This document shows positions 36,948-45,118 of a DNA stretch of 64,000 nucleotides, in pieces (positions within the stretch are counted from its first letter, which is position 1; every line of letters begins with the position of its first letter). Source of the DNA: an uncultured Gammaproteobacteria bacterium. Lineage in GTDB: Bacteria; Pseudomonadota; Gammaproteobacteria; DSM-16500. Below the pieces are notes generated by a model. The model ran no database searches, was not told where the DNA came from, and was given only the letters and a program-made list of their open reading frames with translations. The stretch is from NCBI GenBank assembly GCA_963719645.1, contig CAVRCT010000001.1, forward strand, positions 509,644-573,643. Reading direction: 5' to 3'. Position numbers and translations under genes: made by a program.

Positions 36948-37598
36948 ATGAATCTCAAAAATACTAACCGCTACTGCGTCCCAACCGATGAAGACTTTGA
37001 ACCAGACTCAAACAACGAAGTCCTAAAAAATTATCTCGGCATTAAATCCGCAAATACCATGGGGGAAGTAGAGGAACAAGAACTCGAACGAACTGAAGAA
37101 GAGCTGTCCAATATATTCGATAACAATCATCAATTCACTGCTGAAGATATTTGTAATATTCATGACTTATGGCTTGGAGATATTTACCCCAGCGCCGGCA
37201 AATATCGCACTGTTACCATGTCAAAAGATAACTTCCCTTTTGCCGCACCTCAACGCATTGAATCATCCATGCAAGAATTTGAAAAAAATTATCTTGCCAA
37301 ATATACTCCCTGCCATCATTCCAACTTAGAGGAGCTCGCTTTTGCCTTAGGTATTGTCCATGTTGAATTGATTGTGATTCACCCATTCCGCGAAGGAAAT
37401 GGTAGAACAGCACGCTTATTGGCAGACTTAATGGTTATGCAGGTTAATATGCCACCATTAAATTTTTACTTGATAGATCAAACAGAAAATACAGAAGGCT
37501 TCAAGCAATATGTATTAGCCATTCACGCAGGAGTAAACGGAGATTATGAGCCTATTCAAAAGATTTTTCGGACGTTGCTAACACAGTCTGCTATTTAG
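36948..37598 (+). CDS. Fic-domain protein (AMPylase-type, Fic/Doc family)
   Basis: 216 aa with canonical Fic motif HPFREGNGRTAR. I found no (S/T)xxxE(G/N) inhibitory motif within the protein itself. Confidence 0.9.
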   Translation: MNLKNTNRYCVPTDEDFEPDSNNEVLKNYLGIKSANTMGEVEEQELERTEEELSNIFDNNHQFTAEDICNIHDLWLGDIYPSAGKYRTVTMSKDNFPFAAPQRIESSMQEFEKNYLAKYTPCHHSNLEELAFALGIVHVELIVIHPFREGNGRTARLLADLMVMQVNMPPLNFYLIDQTENTEGFKQYVLAIHAGVNGDYEPIQKIFRTLLTQSAI

Positions 37599-37773
37599 AG
37601 ACCTTGTAAATCTTCTTATCTCGTCTACGGGGAATTTCGAAACGAACAACATTGACAGGGGCTTTAATTCCTTCTACACCGCACGATGTCCTTACTGACC
37701 GCGAAATTAATTTCTTTCGCATATCTGCATCTCTCAAATAAGGATTTGTTTCAATAAGTGGTTTATTTTTCAT
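37591..37773 (-). CDS. Small ORF with VbhA/YhfG-type SxxxEG motif (candidate Fic antitoxin), convergent with fic
   Basis: 60 aa: MKNKPLIETNPYLRDADMRKKLISRSVRTSCGVEGIKAPVNVVRFEIPRRRDKKIYKVSK. SCGVEG fits the (S/T)xxxE(G/N) inhibitory motif. Its 3' end overlaps the fic 3' end by 8 bp. Confidence 0.4.
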   Translation of the reverse strand: MKNKPLIETNPYLRDADMRKKLISRSVRTSCGVEGIKAPVNVVRFEIPRRRDKKIYKVSK

Positions 37774-37948: not shown

Positions 37949-39032
37949 GGGGGCGCATTCTAGCTCCAAATGCGACAATCATTTTTGTACTGCTGTATAA
38001 ACACTTCGTTGGGCGTTTTGTACCCTAAACATTTTCGAGGGCATCGGTTCATTTGAGCAGCCAGTTGATCTAGCTCCTCTTGAGTCATTTTGGCAATTTC
38101 TGTTTCCCTGGGCAAGTAACGTCTCAATCGACCATTCATATTTTCATTACTACCTTTCTGCCAGGGAGAATGTGTTTCACAGTAATAAACTTTACATTTT
38201 ATTTCTTGCTCAAGCGTTCGATAATCAGCAAACTCACAACCTTGATCAAAGGTAATAGTCTTACACATTTTTGCAGGTAGATTTTTAAATTTTATTTTTA
38301 TTTTATCCATCACTCCATGCGAATGTTTGCTGTTATTTTTTATTAAAAAAACTACTCGCGATTTTCGCTCAACAAGTGTTGTTACTACTTTTTCTTTTGT
38401 ACCTTTAAATTCAATTGTGTCGCCTTCCCAGTGACCAAATTTTTTTCGTGTAGCAATTTCTTCAGGACGTTGCGTAATTAAGCGTATTTTTCCATATCTA
38501 CAAGGGCTTTTTTGCCTGCTATAACGTTTTTTCCTCTTTGGTTTCTTGTAGGGTAAACAATGATACAGTTCTTTGTTTTTTGATTGATAGACAAATTGAT
38601 ATATTGTTTCAGGACACACATAAATTGTTAATTTATGAAATTTCATTCGCCCTGAAATTTGTTCAGGACTCCAACCTTTCTGTAAACTTCTCACAACATA
38701 GTCTCGCAGATAAGCATCTTTTTCGGTTTTACTTAATCGTTTCTGCTTCGCTCGCTCTTCTGTCTTTAACTGAGCTGTCCTGGGTAAGTATCCTTCTGCT
38801 TCACTATTCCGATCGAGTTCTCGATACAGCGTTGACCTATGCTTGTCTAATTTTTTAGCAATCTCAGATATTGATAATTTCATTTCAAGAAAAGTGTAAA
38901 AACGACGTCGATCTGTAATCGACAAATGCGTATACTTGCCCATGCGACAGTCTCCTTTGCTATTCAAGTTCCCCAAGAACATGAATATACAGCATTTTTA
39001 GACTGTCGCACTTCTACTTAGAATTTGCCCCC
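37949..39032 (-). mobile_element. IS30-family insertion sequence
   Basis: Imperfect 32-bp terminal inverted repeats GGGGGCGCATTCTAGCTCCAAATGCGACAATC (37949-37980) and the reverse complement of 39001-39032 (GGGGGCAAATTCTAAGTAGAAGTGCGACAGTC). Single transposase ORF. Confidence 0.8.
37960..38982 (-). CDS. IS30-family DDE transposase
   Basis: 340 aa. N-terminal HTH MGKYTHLSITDRRRFYTFLEMKLSISEIAKKLDKHRSTLYRELDRN, DDE region HWEGDTI...TFDQGCEFA...HSPWQKGSNEN. The true start may be the internal MGKY. Confidence 0.93.
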   Translation of the reverse strand: MFLGNLNSKGDCRMGKYTHLSITDRRRFYTFLEMKLSISEIAKKLDKHRSTLYRELDRNSEAEGYLPRTAQLKTEERAKQKRLSKTEKDAYLRDYVVRSLQKGWSPEQISGRMKFHKLTIYVCPETIYQFVYQSKNKELYHCLPYKKPKRKKRYSRQKSPCRYGKIRLITQRPEEIATRKKFGHWEGDTIEFKGTKEKVVTTLVERKSRVVFLIKNNSKHSHGVMDKIKIKFKNLPAKMCKTITFDQGCEFADYRTLEQEIKCKVYYCETHSPWQKGSNENMNGRLRRYLPRETEIAKMTQEELDQLAAQMNRCPRKCLGYKTPNEVFIQQYKNDCRIWS

Positions 39033-39061: not shown

Positions 39062-39106
39062 TGGTGGGCCGTGTTGGGATCGAACCAACGACCTATTGAT
39101 TAAGAG
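39062..39106 (-). other. 45-nt 3' segment of a tRNA-Lys(CUU)-like gene (anticodon loop to CCA), att-site-type remnant and not a functional tRNA
   Basis: Minus strand reads CTCTTAATCAATAGGTCGTTGGTTCGATCCCAACACGGCCCACCA: anticodon loop CUCUUAA, 3' anticodon stem, variable loop, T-arm GTTGG-TTCGATC-CCAAC, acceptor 3' strand and CCA. The sequence 5' of it cannot form the anticodon stem, D-arm or acceptor 5' strand. Confidence 0.65.
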
Positions 39107-39248
39107 ACCTATTCAAACTATATTCTGCAATACATCACAATCAATAATAACAATTAAATCAATCAGTTAGTGAAATTTTAGTGTCGTCATTTATTGGGCG
39201 ATCTTGCTATTTATTATCTCTGAGTGCCCCGCCAGTGCCCCATAAATT

Positions 39249-40298
39249 TCATTTAATTCCATCCAGCAATTTTGCAATTAACTCTGGCGCAGGTAGTTGC
39301 TTTTGCAATTCTTTGGGTAACTGATTAAAAAGCTTATATTCCGCCACTCCAATAGGCTTGCTGGCATCATGAAGCGAGTACTCGACAATTGTTTTACTTT
39401 TGCTCTTACAAAGAATAATACCAATTGAGAAATTTTCATCATTCAACCGCACAGTCTCATCAAGCGCACGCAAATAAAATTGCATCTTACCCACATACTC
39501 AGGCTTAAACTCACCTACCTTTAATTCGATTGCAACCAAACATTTCATGTGCCGGTGGTATAACATAATGTCGATAAAAAACTCTTTGCCATCGACTTCT
39601 AAACGATACTGACTACCGAGGAAAGTAAAAAGACCACCCATTTCTCGCAGGAAAGGCTCTATTTTTAAGAGAATGGCTTCCTCTAGTTGCTTTTCGCTAT
39701 GTTCCTCACCCAGCTCCAGAAAATCAAAGGTATATTCATCTTTTACAGCTAATTTGGCTTGCTGAAGTAATGTGTCAGGGAGAGTTTTATCAAAATTTGT
39801 TTGATTTAATAGCGTCTTTTCATATGATTGATTCTCGATCTGATGAATTAGAACGTTCTTTGTCCAGCCATGTTTTCGGGTCATTCTAATATAAAATTCC
39901 CGCTCCAAATCGTCCTTACACTTCTCCATGATAATAATGTTATGGCTCCATCCAATTTCTCGCACCATTGGTGCGAGTTTTTGATTAGCTCCATAAACGT
40001 CGAAAAATAGCCTCATTCGCCATAGGCTAGCTGCTGAGAAGCCACGAACCCCAGGATAGGATAACTGCAAGTCATGCGCCAATTGTTCTACGATGCTATT
40101 CCCCCACCCTTCGGTTTGCTGTCGTTCGACAACAGCTCGGCCTATATCCCAATACAATGCGATTAATTCTTTGTTAACAGCTTTTAAAGCCTCATACTGC
40201 GCTCCCGCAATCCGAGCTTTAATTGCTCCTAGCAGCTCTGTATATGCAGCATCTTTGACATTCGTTACCATTATCATTCCTAAAATTTTAGTCACCAT
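39249..40298 (-). CDS. DUF1016/YhcG-family PD-(D/E)XK nuclease-domain protein
   Basis: 349 aa. YTELLGAIKARIAGAQYEALKAVNKELIALYWDIGRAVVERQQTEGWGNSIVEQLAHDLQLSYPGVRGFSAASLWRMRLFF is the hallmark YhcG N-terminus. C-terminal ...DIMLYHRHMKCLVAIELKVGEFKPEYVGKMQFYL is the PDDEXK core. Confidence 0.88.
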   Translation of the reverse strand: MVTKILGMIMVTNVKDAAYTELLGAIKARIAGAQYEALKAVNKELIALYWDIGRAVVERQQTEGWGNSIVEQLAHDLQLSYPGVRGFSAASLWRMRLFFDVYGANQKLAPMVREIGWSHNIIIMEKCKDDLEREFYIRMTRKHGWTKNVLIHQIENQSYEKTLLNQTNFDKTLPDTLLQQAKLAVKDEYTFDFLELGEEHSEKQLEEAILLKIEPFLREMGGLFTFLGSQYRLEVDGKEFFIDIMLYHRHMKCLVAIELKVGEFKPEYVGKMQFYLRALDETVRLNDENFSIGIILCKSKSKTIVEYSLHDASKPIGVAEYKLFNQLPKELQKQLPAPELIAKLLDGIK

Positions 40299-40397
40299 TT
40301 ATTTCAAATTGTCAGGTACGATATAGCTATGACAATCTATGGTCAAGTACTGCAAGCACCTAAATTGACTATGATCAACTCTCATAGGAGAAATTTT

Positions 40398-40667
40398 ATG
40401 AAGACTATCCCTTATAAGAACTGCGAGATAAGATCGACTCCTTTCAATGTGGTCAAAGGTCCGTATAAATATTCAGTAAATGGTGTCATTCAGATTAATA
40501 GCAAAAAATTTATTTATGATATTCCAGCAGATTTATTAGGTGTGTCTAATGAAGAATGGTTACATGCTACAGAGGATGAAGCTGATGCGATCTTTATTAA
40601 ATATGCAAAAATTTGGATAAAACAATATCGAAATAGATTAAGAGAAAACTCTGAGAGACCGAACTAA
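40398..40667 (+). CDS. Small hypothetical protein (89 aa)
   Basis: In-frame ATG at 40398 preceded by AGGAG (40386-40390). The track ORF starts earlier at 40329 without an RBS. Confidence 0.5.
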   Translation: MKTIPYKNCEIRSTPFNVVKGPYKYSVNGVIQINSKKFIYDIPADLLGVSNEEWLHATEDEADAIFIKYAKIWIKQYRNRLRENSERPN

Positions 40668-40682
40668 CAAAAGGAGATATTT

Positions 40683-41336
40683 ATGAACTTTACGCCAGAT
40701 CAAAAAGTAAGAATAGTCTCCGCTTGGTTTAATGAAATCGAAGGAACTATTAACGAGCTGGAAAACATATCAACGAACAAATATTATAAAAAAATAGCTG
40801 CGCCAACTCTTTATAGTCTTCTCGAACGAATGGCCTGGTTTCGTTATCGTCAAGAATATTCTGAGTCAAGTAAACGATTTAAAAAACTTCTTTTTACCTA
40901 TTCTAATCTCAATTCTGCACTTGAAAAAATCGATCTAGCTTTTTTGTATCACTGGGATGATTCTGAGCATAGAGAAACACCAAAATATAAAAAAGCTATC
41001 GAAAAAATTCACAAAAAAATTAAAATAGCGCTGAGCGAATTATATGGCACAATCGATACCCATATGGTAAATCGCTTTATTGATCCGAACACTCTTTATC
41101 AAGATTTGATAAGAAAAAATACTCTCCCTGATTGTCTTACACTAGAAAATTTACAGTTATTTAGTGCTTGCGAGGTTATATATAGATTCGGCAGATGTAA
41201 AATGGTTCATCAAGGAGAATTTGTTTCTACTGGCTTTATCGATATTGACCTTCTAATACACCTTACAAAAAACATTGCCAACAATTTAAAAAGTATTTGC
41301 ATAGAAAATAAGAAATTTGCCGATGAACTGGAATAA
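40683..41336 (+). CDS. Hypothetical protein with HEPN-like Rx4H motif near the C-terminus
   Basis: 217 aa, AAGGAG RBS. ACEVIYRFGRCKMVHQGEF resembles the HEPN catalytic helix (..Y..R....H.G). All-helical composition. Weak assignment. Confidence 0.3.
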   Translation: MNFTPDQKVRIVSAWFNEIEGTINELENISTNKYYKKIAAPTLYSLLERMAWFRYRQEYSESSKRFKKLLFTYSNLNSALEKIDLAFLYHWDDSEHRETPKYKKAIEKIHKKIKIALSELYGTIDTHMVNRFIDPNTLYQDLIRKNTLPDCLTLENLQLFSACEVIYRFGRCKMVHQGEFVSTGFIDIDLLIHLTKNIANNLKSICIENKKFADELE

Positions 41337-41589
41337 ACTAAGATAAATAAATTAAACGTGCCTAGGCCATAGCCCTTCAATATGAAATATTATGATTTGT
41401 TTGATAGGAGTCCTGGGCTATCCGCCCAGGCTACGCGCTAAGTTGCATTTGAATTTATTCGGAATAATATAGTCTTAATCTCAGAAACGCAACTTACTGC
41501 TTTCTAAGGGGTGGCTACATTCATAAAGAAACTTATTTATGAGAAATGAATACATATAAAATTAGTACGCTTAAATTTATGGAGATTAC

Positions 41590-42741
41590 ATGTTTAAAAA
41601 TAAAACCTTATTTATACTGGGCGCTGGAGCAAGTCATCCATTTGGCTATCCTTTAGGAAGGCAATTAATTAAGGATATTATAAAAGATATAAAAACTGAC
41701 TCAGTTTATGTACCTATGAGTCCAGAAAAAATAAGGCAATTTCAATTAAATACATATTCAACTTCGATTATCAAATTCAAACTAGATGATTTTATAAGTG
41801 AACTAAAAATAATTATTCAAAGTGATTTCAATAAAGACGGTCAGCAAGCTCTCGTAAATCTAATTTCATTCAAAGGTAAAACATACGCTAAAATCCCTCT
41901 TAGACAAATAGAAGAGCTTATTAATTTGATGAGTGCACTGGAGCAATTTGATCCTGTTTCAATCGATTCATTTCTTAATAATCACAAATCACATTCTCTC
42001 GCTGGAAAAATAATGATTGTTTATACATTGTTAAAATGTGAAGACAAATCAGAATTCGAGCTTTATGCTAAAAGTAATGACAATTGGTATAGTTACCTTA
42101 TAGGCGATATTTTATCCGGTTGTAACGAAGCAAAAGATATATTAGGGAACAACCTTGATTTTATCTCATTCAACTATGATTTAAGCCTAGATTACTGTCT
42201 TTTAAAAAAACTTTCCAATGTTGAAATCCTCAAGGATGATCGAGACGCACAAGGTTATATTAATCAACTTGTAACACAAAAAATAAAACATGTTTACGGG
42301 AAATTGTATGATGATAAATTAATTGATAGATATAGCATGTACCAATCAACTCCATCGAATCAGACCACCTCAATGCAAACGGAACGTTTTTTGAAAGCAA
42401 TTGAATCAAGAGATTTAATTAAATTAATTAATGAAGAAAGGTTAAGTGGCGATACAGAAGTATATGCTTCTCTGATTAAAGAAGCCGAAAAGGTTATAAT
42501 CATTGGATTTGGTTTTGATAGAGACAACCTAAATATATTGGGTTTCCCCAGCCAATTATCAGACTATGCTAATGTTTTACACTCCAAAAAAATACTTTAC
42601 ATGGATTACGAAGGAAAAATGAAATCTCTTTCAGCGCAGTTTGAAGAGCTAAATATAAGATGCAACGCTTATGTAACGCGATCTGTCTCAACATCAATTA
42701 TTGACGCATATCAAAACGATTTCAAAATTTACTTATATTAG
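41590..42741 (+). CDS. SIR2-like (SIR2_2 type) protein, candidate NAD-consuming defence effector
   Basis: 383 aa, GGAG RBS. N-terminal LFILGAGASHPFGYPLGRQL (the GAGxS...P....L dinucleotide-binding start of defence SIR2 proteins), FISFNYDLSLDY (compare TTNYD), IKHVYGKL (compare KLHG), VIIIGFGFDRDNLNIL (compare the GYS..D motif). Confidence 0.5.
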   Translation: MFKNKTLFILGAGASHPFGYPLGRQLIKDIIKDIKTDSVYVPMSPEKIRQFQLNTYSTSIIKFKLDDFISELKIIIQSDFNKDGQQALVNLISFKGKTYAKIPLRQIEELINLMSALEQFDPVSIDSFLNNHKSHSLAGKIMIVYTLLKCEDKSEFELYAKSNDNWYSYLIGDILSGCNEAKDILGNNLDFISFNYDLSLDYCLLKKLSNVEILKDDRDAQGYINQLVTQKIKHVYGKLYDDKLIDRYSMYQSTPSNQTTSMQTERFLKAIESRDLIKLINEERLSGDTEVYASLIKEAEKVIIIGFGFDRDNLNILGFPSQLSDYANVLHSKKILYMDYEGKMKSLSAQFEELNIRCNAYVTRSVSTSIIDAYQNDFKIYLY

Positions 42742-42877: not shown

Positions 42878-44419
42878 CTAAAGCTGTATAAACTGCGGCA
42901 ACAACTTGCGGTAATCATCTTCGGTAACGCATCCACGGATTCGAGTTAACATAGCGCATAAATATCGATAAGGTTCGATATTGTTTGCTTTGCAAGTTTC
43001 AATGAGCGAATAGAAGATAGCACCTGCTTTTGCTCCACTCGGACTTGCATTGAATAACCAGTTTTTGCGACCAATCGCAAATGGGCGTATGGCATTTTCA
43101 ACTAGGTTATTATCTATTTCGACACGACCATTAATTAAATAATTATTCAATTCTGTCCAGTTACCGACACAGTAACGAATAGCTTTACCAATAGCGCCTT
43201 GTTCTGAGGTTTTAGGTGTGTGATGATCAAGCCATTTTTTAAATGCTGCAAGTACAGGAACAGATTTTTCTTGGCGTAATTTATATCGCTCTTCTGGCGT
43301 TAATTGGTTATCTCGTGCTTCGCTTTCAACCGCATAAAGCTTTCGATAAAACTTTATAGCTTCATGCGCAAGACCAGATGTTTTTTGTGTTTTTGCTAAC
43401 TCAGCAAATGGTCTTCTTGCATGAGCGTGACATCCAACACGTAAAATTTCTTCTTTATCATTCGCCCAGTTATAACCGGAGAATGCATCACTTTGTAAAT
43501 AGCCTTCAAACCCCAACAAAAATTGTTGCGCGTGGTAACCACCGCGAGTTTCTTGATATTCATAAACAATACAAGGATTACTTCCTCCGCCGCGATAAAC
43601 CCACATATAAGATTTGGTGCGATTATCACGTCCAACTTCATTTAAAACTTGTACGCTTGTTTCATCGACTTGAACATAATCGTTAGAAATAATAATTTTT
43701 TGTAATAACCTAACAAGAGGTACAGCAAATTCTGCAGTTTTTAACACCCAACCACATAAACTGCTGCGTGGCATATCTATTTCCATGCGCTTCCACATTT
43801 CTTCTTGTCGATAAAGCGGAAGATGATCACAATATTTTGAGACGACAACATGAGCAACTAATTCGGGTGTCGCGATGCTTTTTGGTAAAAGCAATACGGG
43901 CATTGGTGCAATTTTTACATTCTCTTGACAAGGCTTACATGCATACTTCGGTCTCACATGCTGGATTACACTGACTTTCGCAGGGATGTATTTGAGTTGT
44001 TCGCTAATTTCATTACCTATATGCATTAGAGGCGTGCCACAACCACAGATTTTTTCCATTTCAGATATATCGTGCATTATAACTTCACGTGGAAGATAGG
44101 CTGGTAACGGCTTGCGTATTGGGTGTTTTTTACGAACATGCGACTGAACTTTTATTTCTTCATCTTCAATATGCTCTTTGACTTCATCTGGCAAGTCAAT
44201 GCCAGCTTCATCGAACATGTCTGGCTGTAAAATATTTTTTTCTGATGATGGCGAAAAATATCGTTGCTTTGATAAGCGAATCTCTTCAAGAAGATTCGCA
44301 TATTTTATTTTGTATTCTGCAAATTCATTTTGATTTTTATGCAGAGCTTCTTGCAGATGAAGAATGATGTTTTTTAATTCTTCTTCTGATTTTGGTAAGT
44401 TTTCAATATTAAATTTCAT
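42878..44419 (-). CDS. tnpC: IS66-family DDE transposase (TnpC)
   Basis: 513 aa. CGCGTPLMHIG...CKPCQ zinc finger, DHLPLYRQ, VDETSVQVL, DNNLVENAIRPF. Confidence 0.95.
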   Translation of the reverse strand: MKFNIENLPKSEEELKNIILHLQEALHKNQNEFAEYKIKYANLLEEIRLSKQRYFSPSSEKNILQPDMFDEAGIDLPDEVKEHIEDEEIKVQSHVRKKHPIRKPLPAYLPREVIMHDISEMEKICGCGTPLMHIGNEISEQLKYIPAKVSVIQHVRPKYACKPCQENVKIAPMPVLLLPKSIATPELVAHVVVSKYCDHLPLYRQEEMWKRMEIDMPRSSLCGWVLKTAEFAVPLVRLLQKIIISNDYVQVDETSVQVLNEVGRDNRTKSYMWVYRGGGSNPCIVYEYQETRGGYHAQQFLLGFEGYLQSDAFSGYNWANDKEEILRVGCHAHARRPFAELAKTQKTSGLAHEAIKFYRKLYAVESEARDNQLTPEERYKLRQEKSVPVLAAFKKWLDHHTPKTSEQGAIGKAIRYCVGNWTELNNYLINGRVEIDNNLVENAIRPFAIGRKNWLFNASPSGAKAGAIFYSLIETCKANNIEPYRYLCAMLTRIRGCVTEDDYRKLLPQFIQL

Positions 44420-44459
44420 GCGCTCAATATAGCAAAGAATAGCTATATTTTCGAGTATT

Positions 44460-44810
44460 TTAGCAAAAACTTTCTATCTGGCTTGACCTCATATTATTGA
44501 TTCGAGAATATTTGTCGCTTGCTAGCAACCATTTTAAATGCTCTCTGCTCATCTCAATACAACCTTCCGCATCACGAGCAAAAACAAACCTGCCTCTCTC
44601 TAATCGACGGTACCACAAAGTAAAACAATTCATCTCATAATAAAGAGCTTTTAATTTGTTACCACTTTTCCCGCGAAATAGAAATAAACTTCCGTCAATT
44701 GGATTCATTTTCATGATTTCAGAAATCAAAATATTAAGAGTATCAATTGACTTTCTCATATCAACCGGCTGAGTATAAAAATAAATTTTCACATCATCAG
44801 GTATTAACAT
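44460..44810 (-). CDS. tnpB: IS66 Orf2 (TnpB)
   Basis: 116 aa. IYFYTQPVDMRKSIDTLNILISEIMKMNPIDGSLFLFRGKSGNKLKALYYEMNCFTLWYRRLERGRF. Confidence 0.92.
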   Translation of the reverse strand: MLIPDDVKIYFYTQPVDMRKSIDTLNILISEIMKMNPIDGSLFLFRGKSGNKLKALYYEMNCFTLWYRRLERGRFVFARDAEGCIEMSREHLKWLLASDKYSRINNMRSSQIESFC

Positions 44811-45118
44811 GCCAATAATACCTCTACTAGTTTTTTAATGTGCAATGCATCTACAGCAGAAGAAAACACGCATTGAAATCCATTTGGTAAATTCAAACGT
44901 ATTTCTTTTTCGTTTGATTGTTGATTGATTTTAACCGAAGCAAACGATCCGACTGGTTTTAGATCTTTCAAAGGTTTTGGCTTTAAAATACCGCGATAAT
45001 ATCCAAATTGTGCTGAGGATAAATTTTTTTGTTTGCAAAAATTAATTTGGGACAGGCCACTTTGTTCTTGCTCTTCGATTAAGATTTTCCACTTTTCTCG
45101 TTGCTCGACTTTATCCAT
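44804..45118 (-). CDS. tnpA: IS66 accessory protein TnpA-like
   Basis: 104 aa: MDKVEQREKWKILIEEQEQSGLSQINFCKQKNLSSAQFGYY... The identical N-terminus is encoded at 63846-64000. Confidence 0.85.
   Translation of the reverse strand: MDKVEQREKWKILIEEQEQSGLSQINFCKQKNLSSAQFGYYRGILKPKPLKDLKPVGSFASVKINQQSNEKEIRLNLPNGFQCVFSSAVDALHIKKLVEVLLAC

What the first reader, a model, noticed from the sequence alone, without database searches (positions are those of the whole stretch)
39249..42741. Possible defence islet next to the att remnant: YhcG-type nuclease, HEPN-like protein and a stand-alone SIR2-like protein
Immediately beside the tRNA fragment are these genes:
- A DUF1016/YhcG PD-(D/E)XK protein (minus strand).
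- On the plus strand, an 89-aa ORF.
- A 217-aa helical protein ending in …VIYRFGRCKMVHQGEF (an Rx4H motif in a context like HEPN catalytic helices).
- A 383-aa protein with the motif series of defence-type SIR2 domains: LFILGAGAS…P.G, FNYD, K-H-x-Y-G-K-L, IIIGFGFDRDN.

SIR2 (NAD+ depletion) and HEPN (RNase) modules are recurrent effectors of abortive-infection systems. I do not recognise this particular 89-aa + HEPN-like + short SIR2 combination as a named system (not Thoeris, DSR, SIR2-HerA or pAgo-SIR2 by architecture). A 250-bp gap with a CCTGGGCTATCCGCCCAGG hairpin separates the last two genes, so they may be independent.
Basis: inference. Interest (0 to 1): 0.6.

Follow-up and report, generated by a model that had tools for sequence, protein, structure and literature searches.

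The report
Three unlinked defence-type genes, island remnant
An insertion-sequence-flanked leftover of a tRNA-Lys genomic island in a Legionella-like bacterium carries three separate defence-type genes (a YhcG nuclease, a rare unclassified helical protein and a stand-alone SIR2-fold enzyme) that do not travel together elsewhere, so it is an ordinary defence-island patchwork rather than a new multi-gene system.

Summary
YhcG is certain (Pfam 2e-59; PADLOC candidate PDC-S02, 9e-145).

The 383-aa protein has a SIR2 fold. Its model has pLDDT 94, and the 26 best PDB matches are defence or NADase SIR2 proteins. Its GAGAS, FNYD and GFGFD motifs are conserved across 62 aligned relatives. It falls below every curated SIR2 or AbiH model. 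Its invariant His sits two residues before the canonical His column (HxYG).

The 217-aa protein belongs to a rare family absent from all libraries searched (42 representatives in 1.8 billion). The family has invariant D84, Y167, R171 and H176 (RCxxVH). HEPN membership could not be tested: the fold model was poor, and my profile test could not link even two true HEPN families.

The genes are not a system:
- No 217-family gene lies within 8 kb of 80 SIR2-like loci.
- No SIR2-like gene lies beside 8 other 217-family genes.
- The 89-aa ORF's only homologue sits elsewhere.

Close SIR2-like relatives sit beside integrases, type I R-M and Abi/toxin genes. Distant relatives sit among housekeeping genes.

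A related genome has an intact tRNA-Lys with a similar island, which supports the att-remnant reading.

Verdict: new members of known kinds, of moderate interest.

The parts
37960..38982 (-). IS30-family transposase gene (left flank of the islet)
   Evidence: HTH_38 2e-11 and rve 6e-9; ORF.
39062..39106 (-). Orphan 3' fragment of tRNA-Lys(CUU), running from the anticodon loop to CCA. It is the displaced att copy of a tRNA-targeting island.
   Evidence: ARAGORN finds no complete tRNA in the window. The sequence is shown. It is 93% identical over 42 nt to the 3' part of the intact tRNA-Lys(CUU) of related genome G262. The intact gene of this genome is on another contig, C7:641038-641111.
39204..39242 (.). 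Short segment with two GTGCCCC repeats. It is shared with the island side of tRNA-Lys in G262 and may be an integrase arm-type site.
   Evidence: blastn gives 87% identity over 39 nt to L159 7248-7286; sequences. The function is inferred.
39249..40298 (-). YhcG-type protein: DUF1016 N-domain plus PD-(D/E)XK nuclease domain, 349 aa. It is a candidate single-gene defence protein (PADLOC PDC-S02).
   Evidence: Pfam YhcG_C 2.3e-59 and DUF1016_N 2.6e-44. PADLOC PDC-S02 9.1e-145. The D...ELK nuclease motif is intact (FFIDIML...VAIELK).
40398..40667 (+). 89-aa ORF (alternative start at 40329 gives 112 aa), probably co-transcribed with the 217-aa gene. Function unknown.
   Evidence: AGGAG lies 8 nt before ATG 40398, and the stop is 15 bp before the next start. 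No family in Pfam, PADLOC or NCBIfam. The single homologue in 5.8 billion proteins (51% identity) is not next to a 217-family gene. No homologue lies beside any other 217-family gene.
40683..41336 (+). 217-aa all-helical protein of a rare family not found in any library searched, with invariant D84, Y167, R171 and H176 (RCxxVH = Rx4H). It is a candidate HEPN-like toxin or abortive-infection gene (inferred).
   Evidence: 42 representatives in 1.84 billion proteins. Invariant columns. No hit in Pfam, PADLOC, NCBIfam, PHROGs or PDB sequences. Relatives lie tail-to-tail with Abi_2 genes (3 of 8) or behind TumE/HVO_A0114 pairs (2 of 8).
41337..41589 (+). 253-bp intergenic region holding the hairpin at 41412-41430 and the ribosome-binding site (GGAG) of the SIR2-like gene.
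   Evidence: Sequence. The hairpin is unique in the window. No terminator-like T-run. The fold z-score is -2.9 against shuffles. No Rfam family.
41590..42741 (+). Stand-alone 383-aa SIR2-fold ('SIRim'/SIR2_2-like) protein, a predicted NAD+-consuming effector with no extra sensor domain.
   Evidence: AF2 model pLDDT 94, pTM 0.92. Foldseek PDB ranks 1-26 are all SIR2 proteins of SIR2-HerA, SPARSA, KomC or ThsA, best E 1.5e-5. Invariant GAG, FNY, H234, G237, G306 and N313. 13 of 62 relatives hit Pfam SIR2_2. The own sequence has only weak N-terminal PADLOC SIR2 hits.
42878..45118 (-). IS66-family element (tnpC 42878-44419, tnpB 44460-44810, tnpA 44804-45118), the right flank of the islet.
   Evidence: DDE_Tnp_IS66 3.8e-93; ORFs.

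Best explanation
The 3.5-kb stretch is the surviving cargo end of an integrative island that once sat in tRNA-Lys(CUU). It is now cut off from that tRNA and boxed in by an IS30 and an IS66 element. It carries three functionally independent, defence-type units rather than one system.

1. A YhcG/DUF1016 PD-(D/E)XK nuclease. This identity is shown. The defence role is only a database candidate.

2. A probable two-gene transcript: an orphan 89-aa ORF plus a 217-aa helical protein. The 217-aa family keeps an Asp, a Tyr and an R-C-x-x-V-H motif invariant. I infer a metal-independent, HEPN-like RNase toxin or abortive-infection protein. The variable upstream ORF may be a neutraliser or may be unrelated.

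3. A separately transcribed, stand-alone SIR2-fold protein of the immune ('SIRim', SIR2_2-like) branch. I infer that it destroys NAD+ when triggered, probably through self-assembly, because it has no sensor domain and no conserved partner. The catalytic pair would be N195 and the invariant H234.

Shown: gene identities, the SIR2 fold, motif conservation, lack of co-occurrence, mobile and patchy distribution, and the tRNA-Lys island origin. Inferred: NADase activity, RNase activity, and any anti-phage phenotype.
For: Identity and fold:
- YhcG.
- SIR2 fold: AF2 pLDDT 94. The top 26 PDB fold matches are all SIR2 proteins that act as defence or NADase effectors.
- The SIRim hallmarks GxG and xxNxD, and a C-terminal GxGxD motif, are invariant in 62 relatives. 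13 of 62 relatives hit PF13289.
- The motifs align colinearly with KomC and with a solved 'SIR2-like domain' protein, 9jap.

Independence of the genes:
- 0 of 80 genome loci with a SIR2-like gene hold a 217-family gene within 8 kb.
- 0 of 8 other 217-family loci hold a SIR2-like gene.
- In the 86 genomes of the same order, 8 have the SIR2-like gene and 2 have the 217 family. Only this genome has both.
- No neighbour is conserved. The largest cluster is integrases, in 7 of 81 loci.

Mobility and defence context of the close clade (16 loci, +-3 genes):
- Phage_integrase 6, type I R-M 4, AbiJ 2, and one each of DarT, HipA and AbiEii.
- One cluster at 90% identity is shared by L. pneumophila and L. 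micdadei.

217 family:
- Invariant D84, Y167, R171 and H176.
- Neighbours are Abi_2, TumE, AbiE and HigB-like genes.

Island origin.
Against: - No activity or phenotype has been measured for any of the three genes.
- The window's own SIR2-like sequence fails every curated SIR2, SIR2_2 or AbiH model. Fold-match TM-scores are only 0.3-0.4.
- In sequence alignments to KomC and AbiH, the canonical catalytic His column falls on Y236. The invariant His is two residues earlier.
- The distant half of the SIR2-like family (25-30% identity) lies next to housekeeping genes: acs, lepA, gidA, argS and uvrB. So 'defence' cannot be extended to the whole family.
- HEPN status of the 217-aa protein is unproven. 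The AF2 model, built from only 4 sequences, was poor (pLDDT 48), and its fold search was meaningless. Profile-profile scores were at noise level.
- I ran no matched random-gene control for defence-gene enrichment.
Confidence: 0.6

Rival explanations
1. The 89-aa, 217-aa and SIR2-like genes (with or without YhcG) form one new multi-gene defence system. A HEPN-like protein and a SIR2 effector would work together.
For: All three are adjacent on one strand within 2.4 kb. SIR2 and HEPN modules are both common abortive-infection effectors (general knowledge).
Against: - They never co-occur elsewhere: 0 of 80 SIR2-like loci, 0 of 8 other 217-family loci, and only this genome among 86 of the order.
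- A 253-bp gap with its own ribosome-binding site separates the last two genes.
- The 89-aa ORF's only homologue stands alone.
- In relatives, the slot after the 217-aa gene holds a convergent Abi_2 gene instead.
Confidence: 0.04
2. The SIR2-like protein is not an anti-phage gene. It could be a cellular regulatory enzyme (a deacylase or ADP-ribosyltransferase, for example acting on acetyl-CoA synthetase). In these intracellular bacteria it could instead be a secreted protein acting on host NAD+.
For: - Immediate neighbours of 63 distant family members are housekeeping genes. They include acs directly upstream in 2 loci and lepA in 3.
- The close clade is almost confined to Legionella, Coxiellaceae and Berkiella. 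Several distant members come from Rickettsiales, Holosporales, Micavibrio and Bdellovibrio-like lineages.
- The register of the catalytic His is atypical.
Against: - No conserved Cys tetrad for Zn and acyl-lysine binding: no Cys is among the invariant or nearly invariant columns. Per bioRxiv 10.1101/2024.09.18.613514, this absence separates immune SIR2s from deacylating sirtuins.
- The top structural matches are defence NADases, not sirtuin deacylases. SIRT3 appears only at rank 28, with E 0.2.
- The distribution is patchy: 8 of 86 genomes of the order.
- Close relatives lie beside integrases, R-M and Abi/toxin genes.
- All database names are 'hypothetical' or 'SIR2-like'. None is annotated as an effector.
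Confidence: 0.15
3. The 217-aa protein is not a HEPN RNase. Its invariant D, Y, R and H serve another chemistry or a binding role. It could be a different toxin fold, a regulator, or an anti-defence or accessory protein of the island.
For: - No HEPN or any other family is detected by HMMER in five libraries, for 32 family members.
- The residue after the Arg is an almost invariant Cys, not the Asn typical of HEPN motifs (Abi_2 comparison).
- In the low-confidence model the motif sits at the end of a helix, not the start.
Against: - Rx4H is strictly invariant across a family that is only about 29% identical on average.
- The protein is all-helical and about 220 aa, with the motif about 45 residues from the C-terminus, as in RiboL-PSP-type HEPN proteins.
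- hhalign, though not significant, pairs its R and H with the R and H of both Abi_2 and RiboL-PSP profiles.
- Neighbours are Abi and toxin-antitoxin genes.
Confidence: 0.4

Closest known systems
AbiH (Lactococcus lactis; Pfam PF14253), single-gene abortive-infection protein with a sirtuin-like fold
   Same: - It is a single gene of about 300-350 aa consisting only of a SIR2-like Rossmann domain.
- The motif series is colinear (N-terminal G-x-G, FNY(D/T), (H)G, then a G-x-x-x-D strand) in the hhalign alignment.
- It is carried on mobile elements (PMC13064643).
   Different: - No PF14253 hit for the window's protein, and only 1 of 62 relatives hits it, at 6e-4.
- Profile-profile probability is below 5%.
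- The N-terminal motif is GAGAS here and GNGFD in AbiH. Here the signature is HxYG; in AbiH it is HG.
SIR2 subunit of SIR2-HerA (Nezha), PDB 8sub, 8suw, 8uae
   Same: It is the best structural match over the full length (Foldseek E 1.5e-5, probability 1.0, about 400 aa). It is also a SIR2 NADase without a fused sensor domain.
   Different: - There is no HerA/DUF87 gene next to it or next to any of 80 relatives.
- Sequence identity is 12-15% and TM-scores are below 0.4.
KomC (Kongming) and ThsA (Thoeris) SIR2 NADases
   Same: - Weak but motif-anchored sequence alignments to KomC cover GAGxS, (T/F)NYD and the His region.
- Both are fold matches.
- The N-to-H spacing is 39 residues, against 40 in ThsA (N112/H152).
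   Different: - There are no KomA/KomB or ThsB partners and no SLOG domain.
- The catalytic His column of KomC aligns with Y236, not H234.
HEPN abortive-infection proteins (Abi_2 = AbiD/AbiF family PF07751; RiboL-PSP/MAE_28990 HEPN families)
   Same: For the 217-aa protein:
- It has an invariant Rx4H motif in an all-helical protein.
- Its size and motif position are like RiboL-PSP HEPN.
- It is found in the same islands, and in 3 relatives it lies tail-to-tail with an Abi_2 gene.
   Different: - No detectable profile similarity.
- The motif is R-C-x-x-V-H rather than R-N-x-x-x-H.
- The fold has not been established.
PADLOC candidate system PDC-S02 (YhcG/DUF1016 nucleases)
   Same: The window's YhcG matches the PDC-S02 models end to end (9e-145) and both Pfam domains.
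   Different: Nothing differs at the sequence level. PDC-S02 itself is a computational candidate. A literature search found no experimental test of it.

Membership tests
Immune SIR2 ('SIRim', SIR2_2-like; definition from bioRxiv 10.1101/2024.09.18.613514) | Rossmann-type SIR2 fold with seven or more central strands | tested here: met
   The AF2 model (pLDDT 94) has seven core strands: 6-10, 38-42, 189-193, 232-234, 301-305, 334-338 and 361-365. The Foldseek top 26 matches are all SIR2 proteins. TM-scores are low (0.3-0.4).
Immune SIR2 ('SIRim', SIR2_2-like) | GxG motif after strand 1 and xxNxD motif | tested here: met
   G11-A12-G13 and F194-N195-Y196 are invariant, and D197 is at least 90% conserved, in 62 relatives. 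The same holds in the distant subfamily.
Immune SIR2 ('SIRim', SIR2_2-like) | Catalytic His about 40 residues after the Asn, in the 'HG' position | tested here: inconclusive
   H234 is invariant and lies 39 residues after N195, at the end of strand 232-234. In alignments to KomC and AbiH the canonical His column falls on Y236, giving the signature H-x-Y-G. Model coordinates could not be inspected.
Immune SIR2 ('SIRim', SIR2_2-like) | No Zn-binding Cys tetrad (present in deacylating sirtuins) | tested here: met
   No Cys appears among the invariant or nearly invariant columns. The sequence has four scattered Cys and no CxxC pair.
Pfam SIR2_2 (PF13289) | Score above the curated model threshold | tested here: not met
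   The window's protein gives no PF13289 hit at E <= 1. 13 of 62 relatives hit it at E <= 0.01, best 4e-7.
AbiH (PF14253) | Match to the AbiH model or profile | tested here: not met
   No hit for the window's protein. hhalign against four AbiH sequences gives probability below 5%.
SIR2-HerA (Nezha) | Adjacent HerA (DUF87) ATPase gene | tested here: not met
   The downstream gene is an IS66 transposase. No DUF87 appears among the neighbour tallies of 79 relatives' loci, and no neighbour is conserved.
Thoeris / DSR / pAgo-SIR2 | Fused SLOG, large C-terminal sensor or APAZ domain, or a TIR or pAgo partner gene | tested here: not met
   The whole 383 aa model forms one SIR2 domain with insertions. 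The neighbouring genes are YhcG, the 89-aa ORF, the 217-aa ORF and IS66.
HEPN superfamily (217-aa protein) | Conserved Rx4-6H motif | tested here: met
   R171 and H176 are invariant in 32 family members. C172 and V175 are at least 90% conserved.
HEPN superfamily (217-aa protein) | Four-helix HEPN core detectable by profile or structure comparison | tested here: inconclusive
   - No HEPN hit by HMMER.
- The AF2 model was poor (pLDDT 48) and its Foldseek results were noise.
- hhalign against Abi_2 and RiboL-PSP gave probability 0.1-0.5%. The positive control, Abi_2 against RiboL-PSP, gave only 0.65%, so the test had no power.
YhcG / DUF1016 nuclease (PADLOC PDC-S02) | DUF1016_N plus YhcG_C PD-(D/E)XK domains above threshold, with the D...ExK motif | tested here: met
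   Scores of 151 and 200 bits against cut-offs of about 33. PDC-S02 9e-145. The motif FFIDIML...AIELK is present.
Single multi-gene defence system (89 + 217 + SIR2) | Recurrent co-occurrence of the component genes in other genomes | tested here: not met
   plus the neighbourhoods.

The most novel reading that the evidence does not exclude
Two undescribed single-gene immune modules sit side by side.

(a) The 217-aa D/Y/RCxxVH family would be a new, very rare HEPN-like (or entirely new-fold) abortive-infection toxin. It occupies the same island slot as AbiD/F-type genes.

(b) The 'HxYG' SIR2 clade would be a sensor-less, partner-less NADase that senses infection through its own helical and beta-hairpin insertions (residues 42-186 and 244-298) or by filament assembly. 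Its close branch has spread almost only among amoeba-associated Legionella and Coxiella relatives. That could mean it targets the mobile elements or viruses met in that niche.
Probability: 0.2. Interest if true: 0.55.

Novelty: new member of a known kind. Interest (0 to 1): 0.35.

Why it matters
If the stand-alone SIR2-fold clade is an NADase defence gene, it adds a compact, partner-less branch to the immune sirtuins. That group includes AbiH, DSR, ThsA, the SIR2 subunit of SIR2-HerA, KomC and human FAM118/SIRanc. The clade has an unusual H-x-Y-G catalytic signature, which would be useful for asking how such enzymes are kept off without a sensor domain.

The 217-aa family is absent from every library I could search. 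It keeps four residues invariant, so it is a cheap and well-defined target for structure prediction and toxicity tests.

Defence repertoires of Legionella and Coxiella relatives are poorly charted. This islet, together with its counterpart next to tRNA-Lys in a related genome, marks a cargo-swapping hot spot.

As a 'system' the finding is ordinary: a mosaic of independent cargo genes in a decayed island.

Tried and rejected
1. One-system reading. Rejected by the neighbourhood data.

2. AbiH membership. Rejected.

3. HerA partner lost to the IS66 insertion. Rejected, because no relative has a HerA neighbour.

4. HEPN test by structure.
- The model was poor (pLDDT 48) and the fold search was uninformative.

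5. HEPN test by hhalign against Abi_2 and RiboL-PSP alignments that I built from 30 and 18 genome hits.
- It gave noise-level scores.
- The control between the two true HEPN families was just as low, so the test says nothing either way.

6. Conserved partner for the 217-aa gene.
- The upstream ORFs differ among relatives (72, 123, 192 and 198 aa; TumE/HVO_A0114; a membrane ORF).
- None resembles the 89-aa ORF.

7. Plasmid, phage and viral-structure searches for the SIR2-like protein, and a plasmid search for the 217-aa protein: no match.

8. Rfam on 38.9-43.0 kb: nothing above noise.

9. Metagenome pattern scan for the 217 family: only one short extra locus. The 32-sequence alignment was too divergent for the pattern tool.

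10. Hairpin as intrinsic terminator or repeat-family member. It has no T-run and is single-copy in the window.

Full report
**1. Observation**

- YhcG, 39249-40298 (-).
- A small ORF, 40329-40667 (+). Its 89-aa form starts at ATG 40398, behind AGGAG.
- A 217-aa ORF, 40683-41336 (+), 15 bp after the small ORF's stop and with its own AGGAG.
- A 383-aa ORF, 41590-42741 (+), after a 253-bp gap.

The hairpin CCTGGGCTATCCGCCCAGG is at 41412-41430. It is unique in the window and has no T-run. All quoted motifs are present. One correction: the RCKMVH motif of the 217-aa protein is at residues 171-176, and 41 residues follow it, so it is not at the end.

The islet is bracketed by an IS30-family transposase gene (37960-38982) and an IS66 element (42878-45118). 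A 45-nt tRNA-Lys(CUU) 3' fragment lies at 39062-39106, and ARAGORN finds no whole tRNA in the window.

**2. YhcG**

- Pfam: YhcG_C 2.3e-59 and DUF1016_N 2.6e-44.
- PADLOC: PDC-S02 9.1e-145.
- The D...ELK nuclease motif is intact.

The identity is secure. The defence role is only a PADLOC candidate, and a literature search found no experimental test.

**3. The 383-aa protein**

Its own sequence hits no Pfam or NCBIfam family. In PADLOC only the N-terminal GAGAS stretch hits SIR2 models (best 4e-5).

It has 359 homologues in 5.8 billion clusters and more than 410 in the species-genome set. In a 62-sequence alignment, G11, A12, G13, P21, D126, W166, F194, N195, Y196, H234, G237, G306 and N313 are invariant. 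13 of the 62 members hit Pfam SIR2_2 (best 4e-7).

AlphaFold2 with this alignment gives pLDDT 94 and pTM 0.92. The model is a single Rossmann-type domain with seven core strands and two large insertions.

Foldseek against the PDB returns only SIR2 proteins for ranks 1-26: the SIR2 of SIR2-HerA/Nezha, SPARSA, KomC and ThsA. The best E is 1.5e-5 with probability 1.0, but TM-scores are only 0.3-0.4. Deacylating SIRT3 first appears at rank 28, with E 0.2.

Weak HMMER alignments to KomC and to a solved 'SIR2-like domain' protein (9jap) line up GAGxS, (T/F)NYD, the His region and the C-terminal G-x-G-x-D strand.

These features match the published definition of immune sirtuins, or 'SIRims': GxG, xxNxD, a catalytic Asn/His pair, no Zn Cys tetrad, and seven or more strands (bioRxiv 10.1101/2024.09.18.613514).

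One deviation exists. In every alignment the canonical His column falls on the nearly invariant Y236, and the invariant H234 lies two residues earlier. This gives a family-wide H-x-Y-G signature. H234 ends strand 232-234 in the model, so it may still be the structural equivalent. I could not inspect coordinates.

The protein is not AbiH. It gives no PF14253 hit, and hhalign probability is below 5%. It is also not SIR2-HerA, Thoeris, DSR or pAgo-SIR2 by architecture.

**4. Context of the SIR2-like family**

No neighbour is conserved. The largest BLAST cluster among +-3 neighbours of 81 loci is tyrosine integrases, in 7 loci. Next is a small XRE-type HTH gene in 5 loci, overlapping the SIR2-like start by 4 bp in two of them.

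The close clade (35-50% identity) is found in Legionella, Coxiellaceae, Berkiella and unnamed Gammaproteobacteria. The +-3 neighbours of its 16 loci include:
- Phage_integrase in 6.
- Type I R-M in 4.
- AbiJ in 2.
- One each of DarT, HipA and AbiEii.

A 90%-identity cluster is shared by L. pneumophila and L. micdadei. Within the window's own order, 8 of 86 genomes carry the gene. This is the pattern of mobile accessory cargo in defence islands.

By contrast, the +-1 neighbours of 63 distant members (25-30% identity, many phyla) are housekeeping genes: acs, lepA, gidA, argS and uvrB. A defence role therefore cannot be extended to the whole family, and I ran no matched random control.

There are no plasmid, phage or viral-structure matches.

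**5. The 217-aa protein**

Only three homologues appear in the 5.8-billion-cluster search. An exhaustive profile search finds 42 representatives in 1.84 billion proteins.

In 32 aligned members (mean column identity 29%), D84, Y167, R171 and H176 are invariant, and C172 and V175 are nearly so. The motif is R-C-x-x-V-H.

No family is hit in Pfam, PADLOC, NCBIfam, PHROGs or PDB sequences.

The structure job used the 4-sequence alignment and gave a poor all-helical model (pLDDT 48). Its fold search was noise.

I built Abi_2 (30 sequences) and RiboL-PSP (18 sequences) alignments from genome hits and ran hhalign:
- 217 family against Abi_2: probability 0.14%.
- 217 family against RiboL-PSP: probability 0.45%.
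- Control, Abi_2 against RiboL-PSP (both true HEPN families): only 0.65%.

The test therefore has no power. In all three alignments the Rx4H motifs are what gets paired. HEPN remains a reasonable but unproven guess, at about even odds.

**6. Context of the 217 family and the 89-aa ORF**

Eight other loci were examined:
- Three have a convergent Abi_2 (AbiD/F-type HEPN) gene 14-300 bp downstream.
- Two have a TumE + HVO_A0114 pair upstream.
- One contig also carries AbiEi/AbiEii.
- None has a SIR2-like gene.

The upstream ORFs differ, and none resembles the 89-aa ORF. The 89-aa ORF has a single homologue (51% identity), which stands next to a Y1 transposase gene rather than a 217-family gene.

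In the 86 genomes of the order, the 217 family occurs only here and as a frameshifted copy in G262, which lacks the SIR2-like gene. The three plus-strand genes are therefore not a system. In this genome the SIR2-like gene simply occupies the slot that Abi_2 occupies in relatives.

**7. Island origin**

In G262 the 217-family pseudogene lies in a stretch with these genes, in order:
- A primase-helicase-like 932-aa gene.
- An integrase fragment.
- A YhcG N-terminal fragment.
- A HigB-like toxin and HTH pair.
- An intact tRNA-Lys(CUU).
- tRNA-His, tRNA-Arg, tRNA-Pro and folD.

The window's fragment is 93% identical to the 3' part of that tRNA. A nearby 39-nt segment with two GTGCCCC repeats is also shared. 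The intact tRNA-Lys of this genome is on another contig.

The islet is therefore the cargo end of a tRNA-Lys island that has been cut off by rearrangement. This fits the IS elements on both sides and the decayed conjugative backbone that other readers noted further along the window.

**8. Mechanism, with what is shown and what is inferred**

Shown:
- Gene identities and the SIR2 fold.
- Invariant motifs.
- Independence of the genes.
- Mobile, patchy distribution.
- Island origin.

Inferred:
- The SIR2-like protein hydrolyses NAD+ through N195 and H234 after an unknown trigger, probably by self-assembly, because it has no sensor domain or partner.
- The 217-aa protein is a HEPN-like RNase toxin, possibly restrained by the product of the co-transcribed upstream ORF.
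- YhcG cleaves nucleic acid.

No phenotype is known for any of them.

**9. Verdict**

- Novelty: new members of known kinds. These are an unnamed stand-alone immune-SIR2 clade with an HxYG signature, plus a rare helical family missing from every library searched.
- Interest is moderate to low, because stand-alone SIR2 candidates are frequent in this scan and nothing here demands a new principle.

Noticed in passing
window 39204-39242 and L159 7248-7286: A 39-nt segment with two direct GTGCCCC repeats lies about 100 bp from the tRNA-Lys fragment here and about 70 bp from the intact tRNA-Lys in G262. It is on opposite sides of the tRNA sequence in the two genomes. It may be an integrase arm-type binding site present on both att arms.
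   Followed up: partly
L159 (G262:C2:12500-25500): A related genome has, next to an intact tRNA-Lys/His/Arg/Pro cluster and folD, an island with these genes: a 932-aa primase-helicase-like gene, an integrase fragment, a YhcG N-terminal fragment, a HigB-like/HTH pair, a membrane ORF and a frameshifted 217-family gene. It is the same island family as here, with different cargo and a different stage of decay.
   Followed up: partly
window 41337-41589: The 253-bp spacer before the SIR2-like gene folds more stably than shuffled sequence (-60.1 kcal/mol, z = -2.9, 0 of 200 shuffles as stable). It matches no Rfam family. It could be a structured leader or a relic.
   Followed up: partly
L014 7732-7995 and L015 7726-7995: In Legionella waltersii and a Legionellaceae MAG, an 87-89-aa XRE-type HTH gene overlaps the start of the SIR2-like gene by 4 bp. 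Five loci in all have such a small HTH neighbour, which may be a dedicated regulator in part of the clade. It is absent from this window.
   Followed up: partly
L024, L027 (acs); L023, L051, L054 (lepA): Distant SIR2-like family members in Alphaproteobacteria, Rickettsiales, Micavibrio and Holosporales lie directly downstream of acetyl-CoA synthetase or lepA on the same strand. The acs link recalls CobB-Acs regulation and deserves a separate look.
   Followed up: no
L001 1423-2340, L089 1912-2871, and the JGI contig of P0123: Three close relatives of the 217-aa gene are tail-to-tail with an Abi_2 (AbiD/F-type) gene only 14-300 bp away. This genome has no Abi_2 gene at all. This could be slot sharing or a loose functional link.
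   Followed up: partly
L015 1629-2732 and L026 2-775: YhcG homologues (35-40% identity) lie within 8 kb of the SIR2-like gene in 2 of 80 loci. In L026 the YhcG homologue is directly upstream of a truncated SIR2-like copy. This is probably shared island residency, not a pair.
   Followed up: partly
window 36948-37773: A Fic-domain gene (Pfam Fic 1e-20) lies just left of the IS30 element, with a convergent 60-aa ORF overlapping its 3' end. It is another toxin-type cargo gene of the same region.
   Followed up: no
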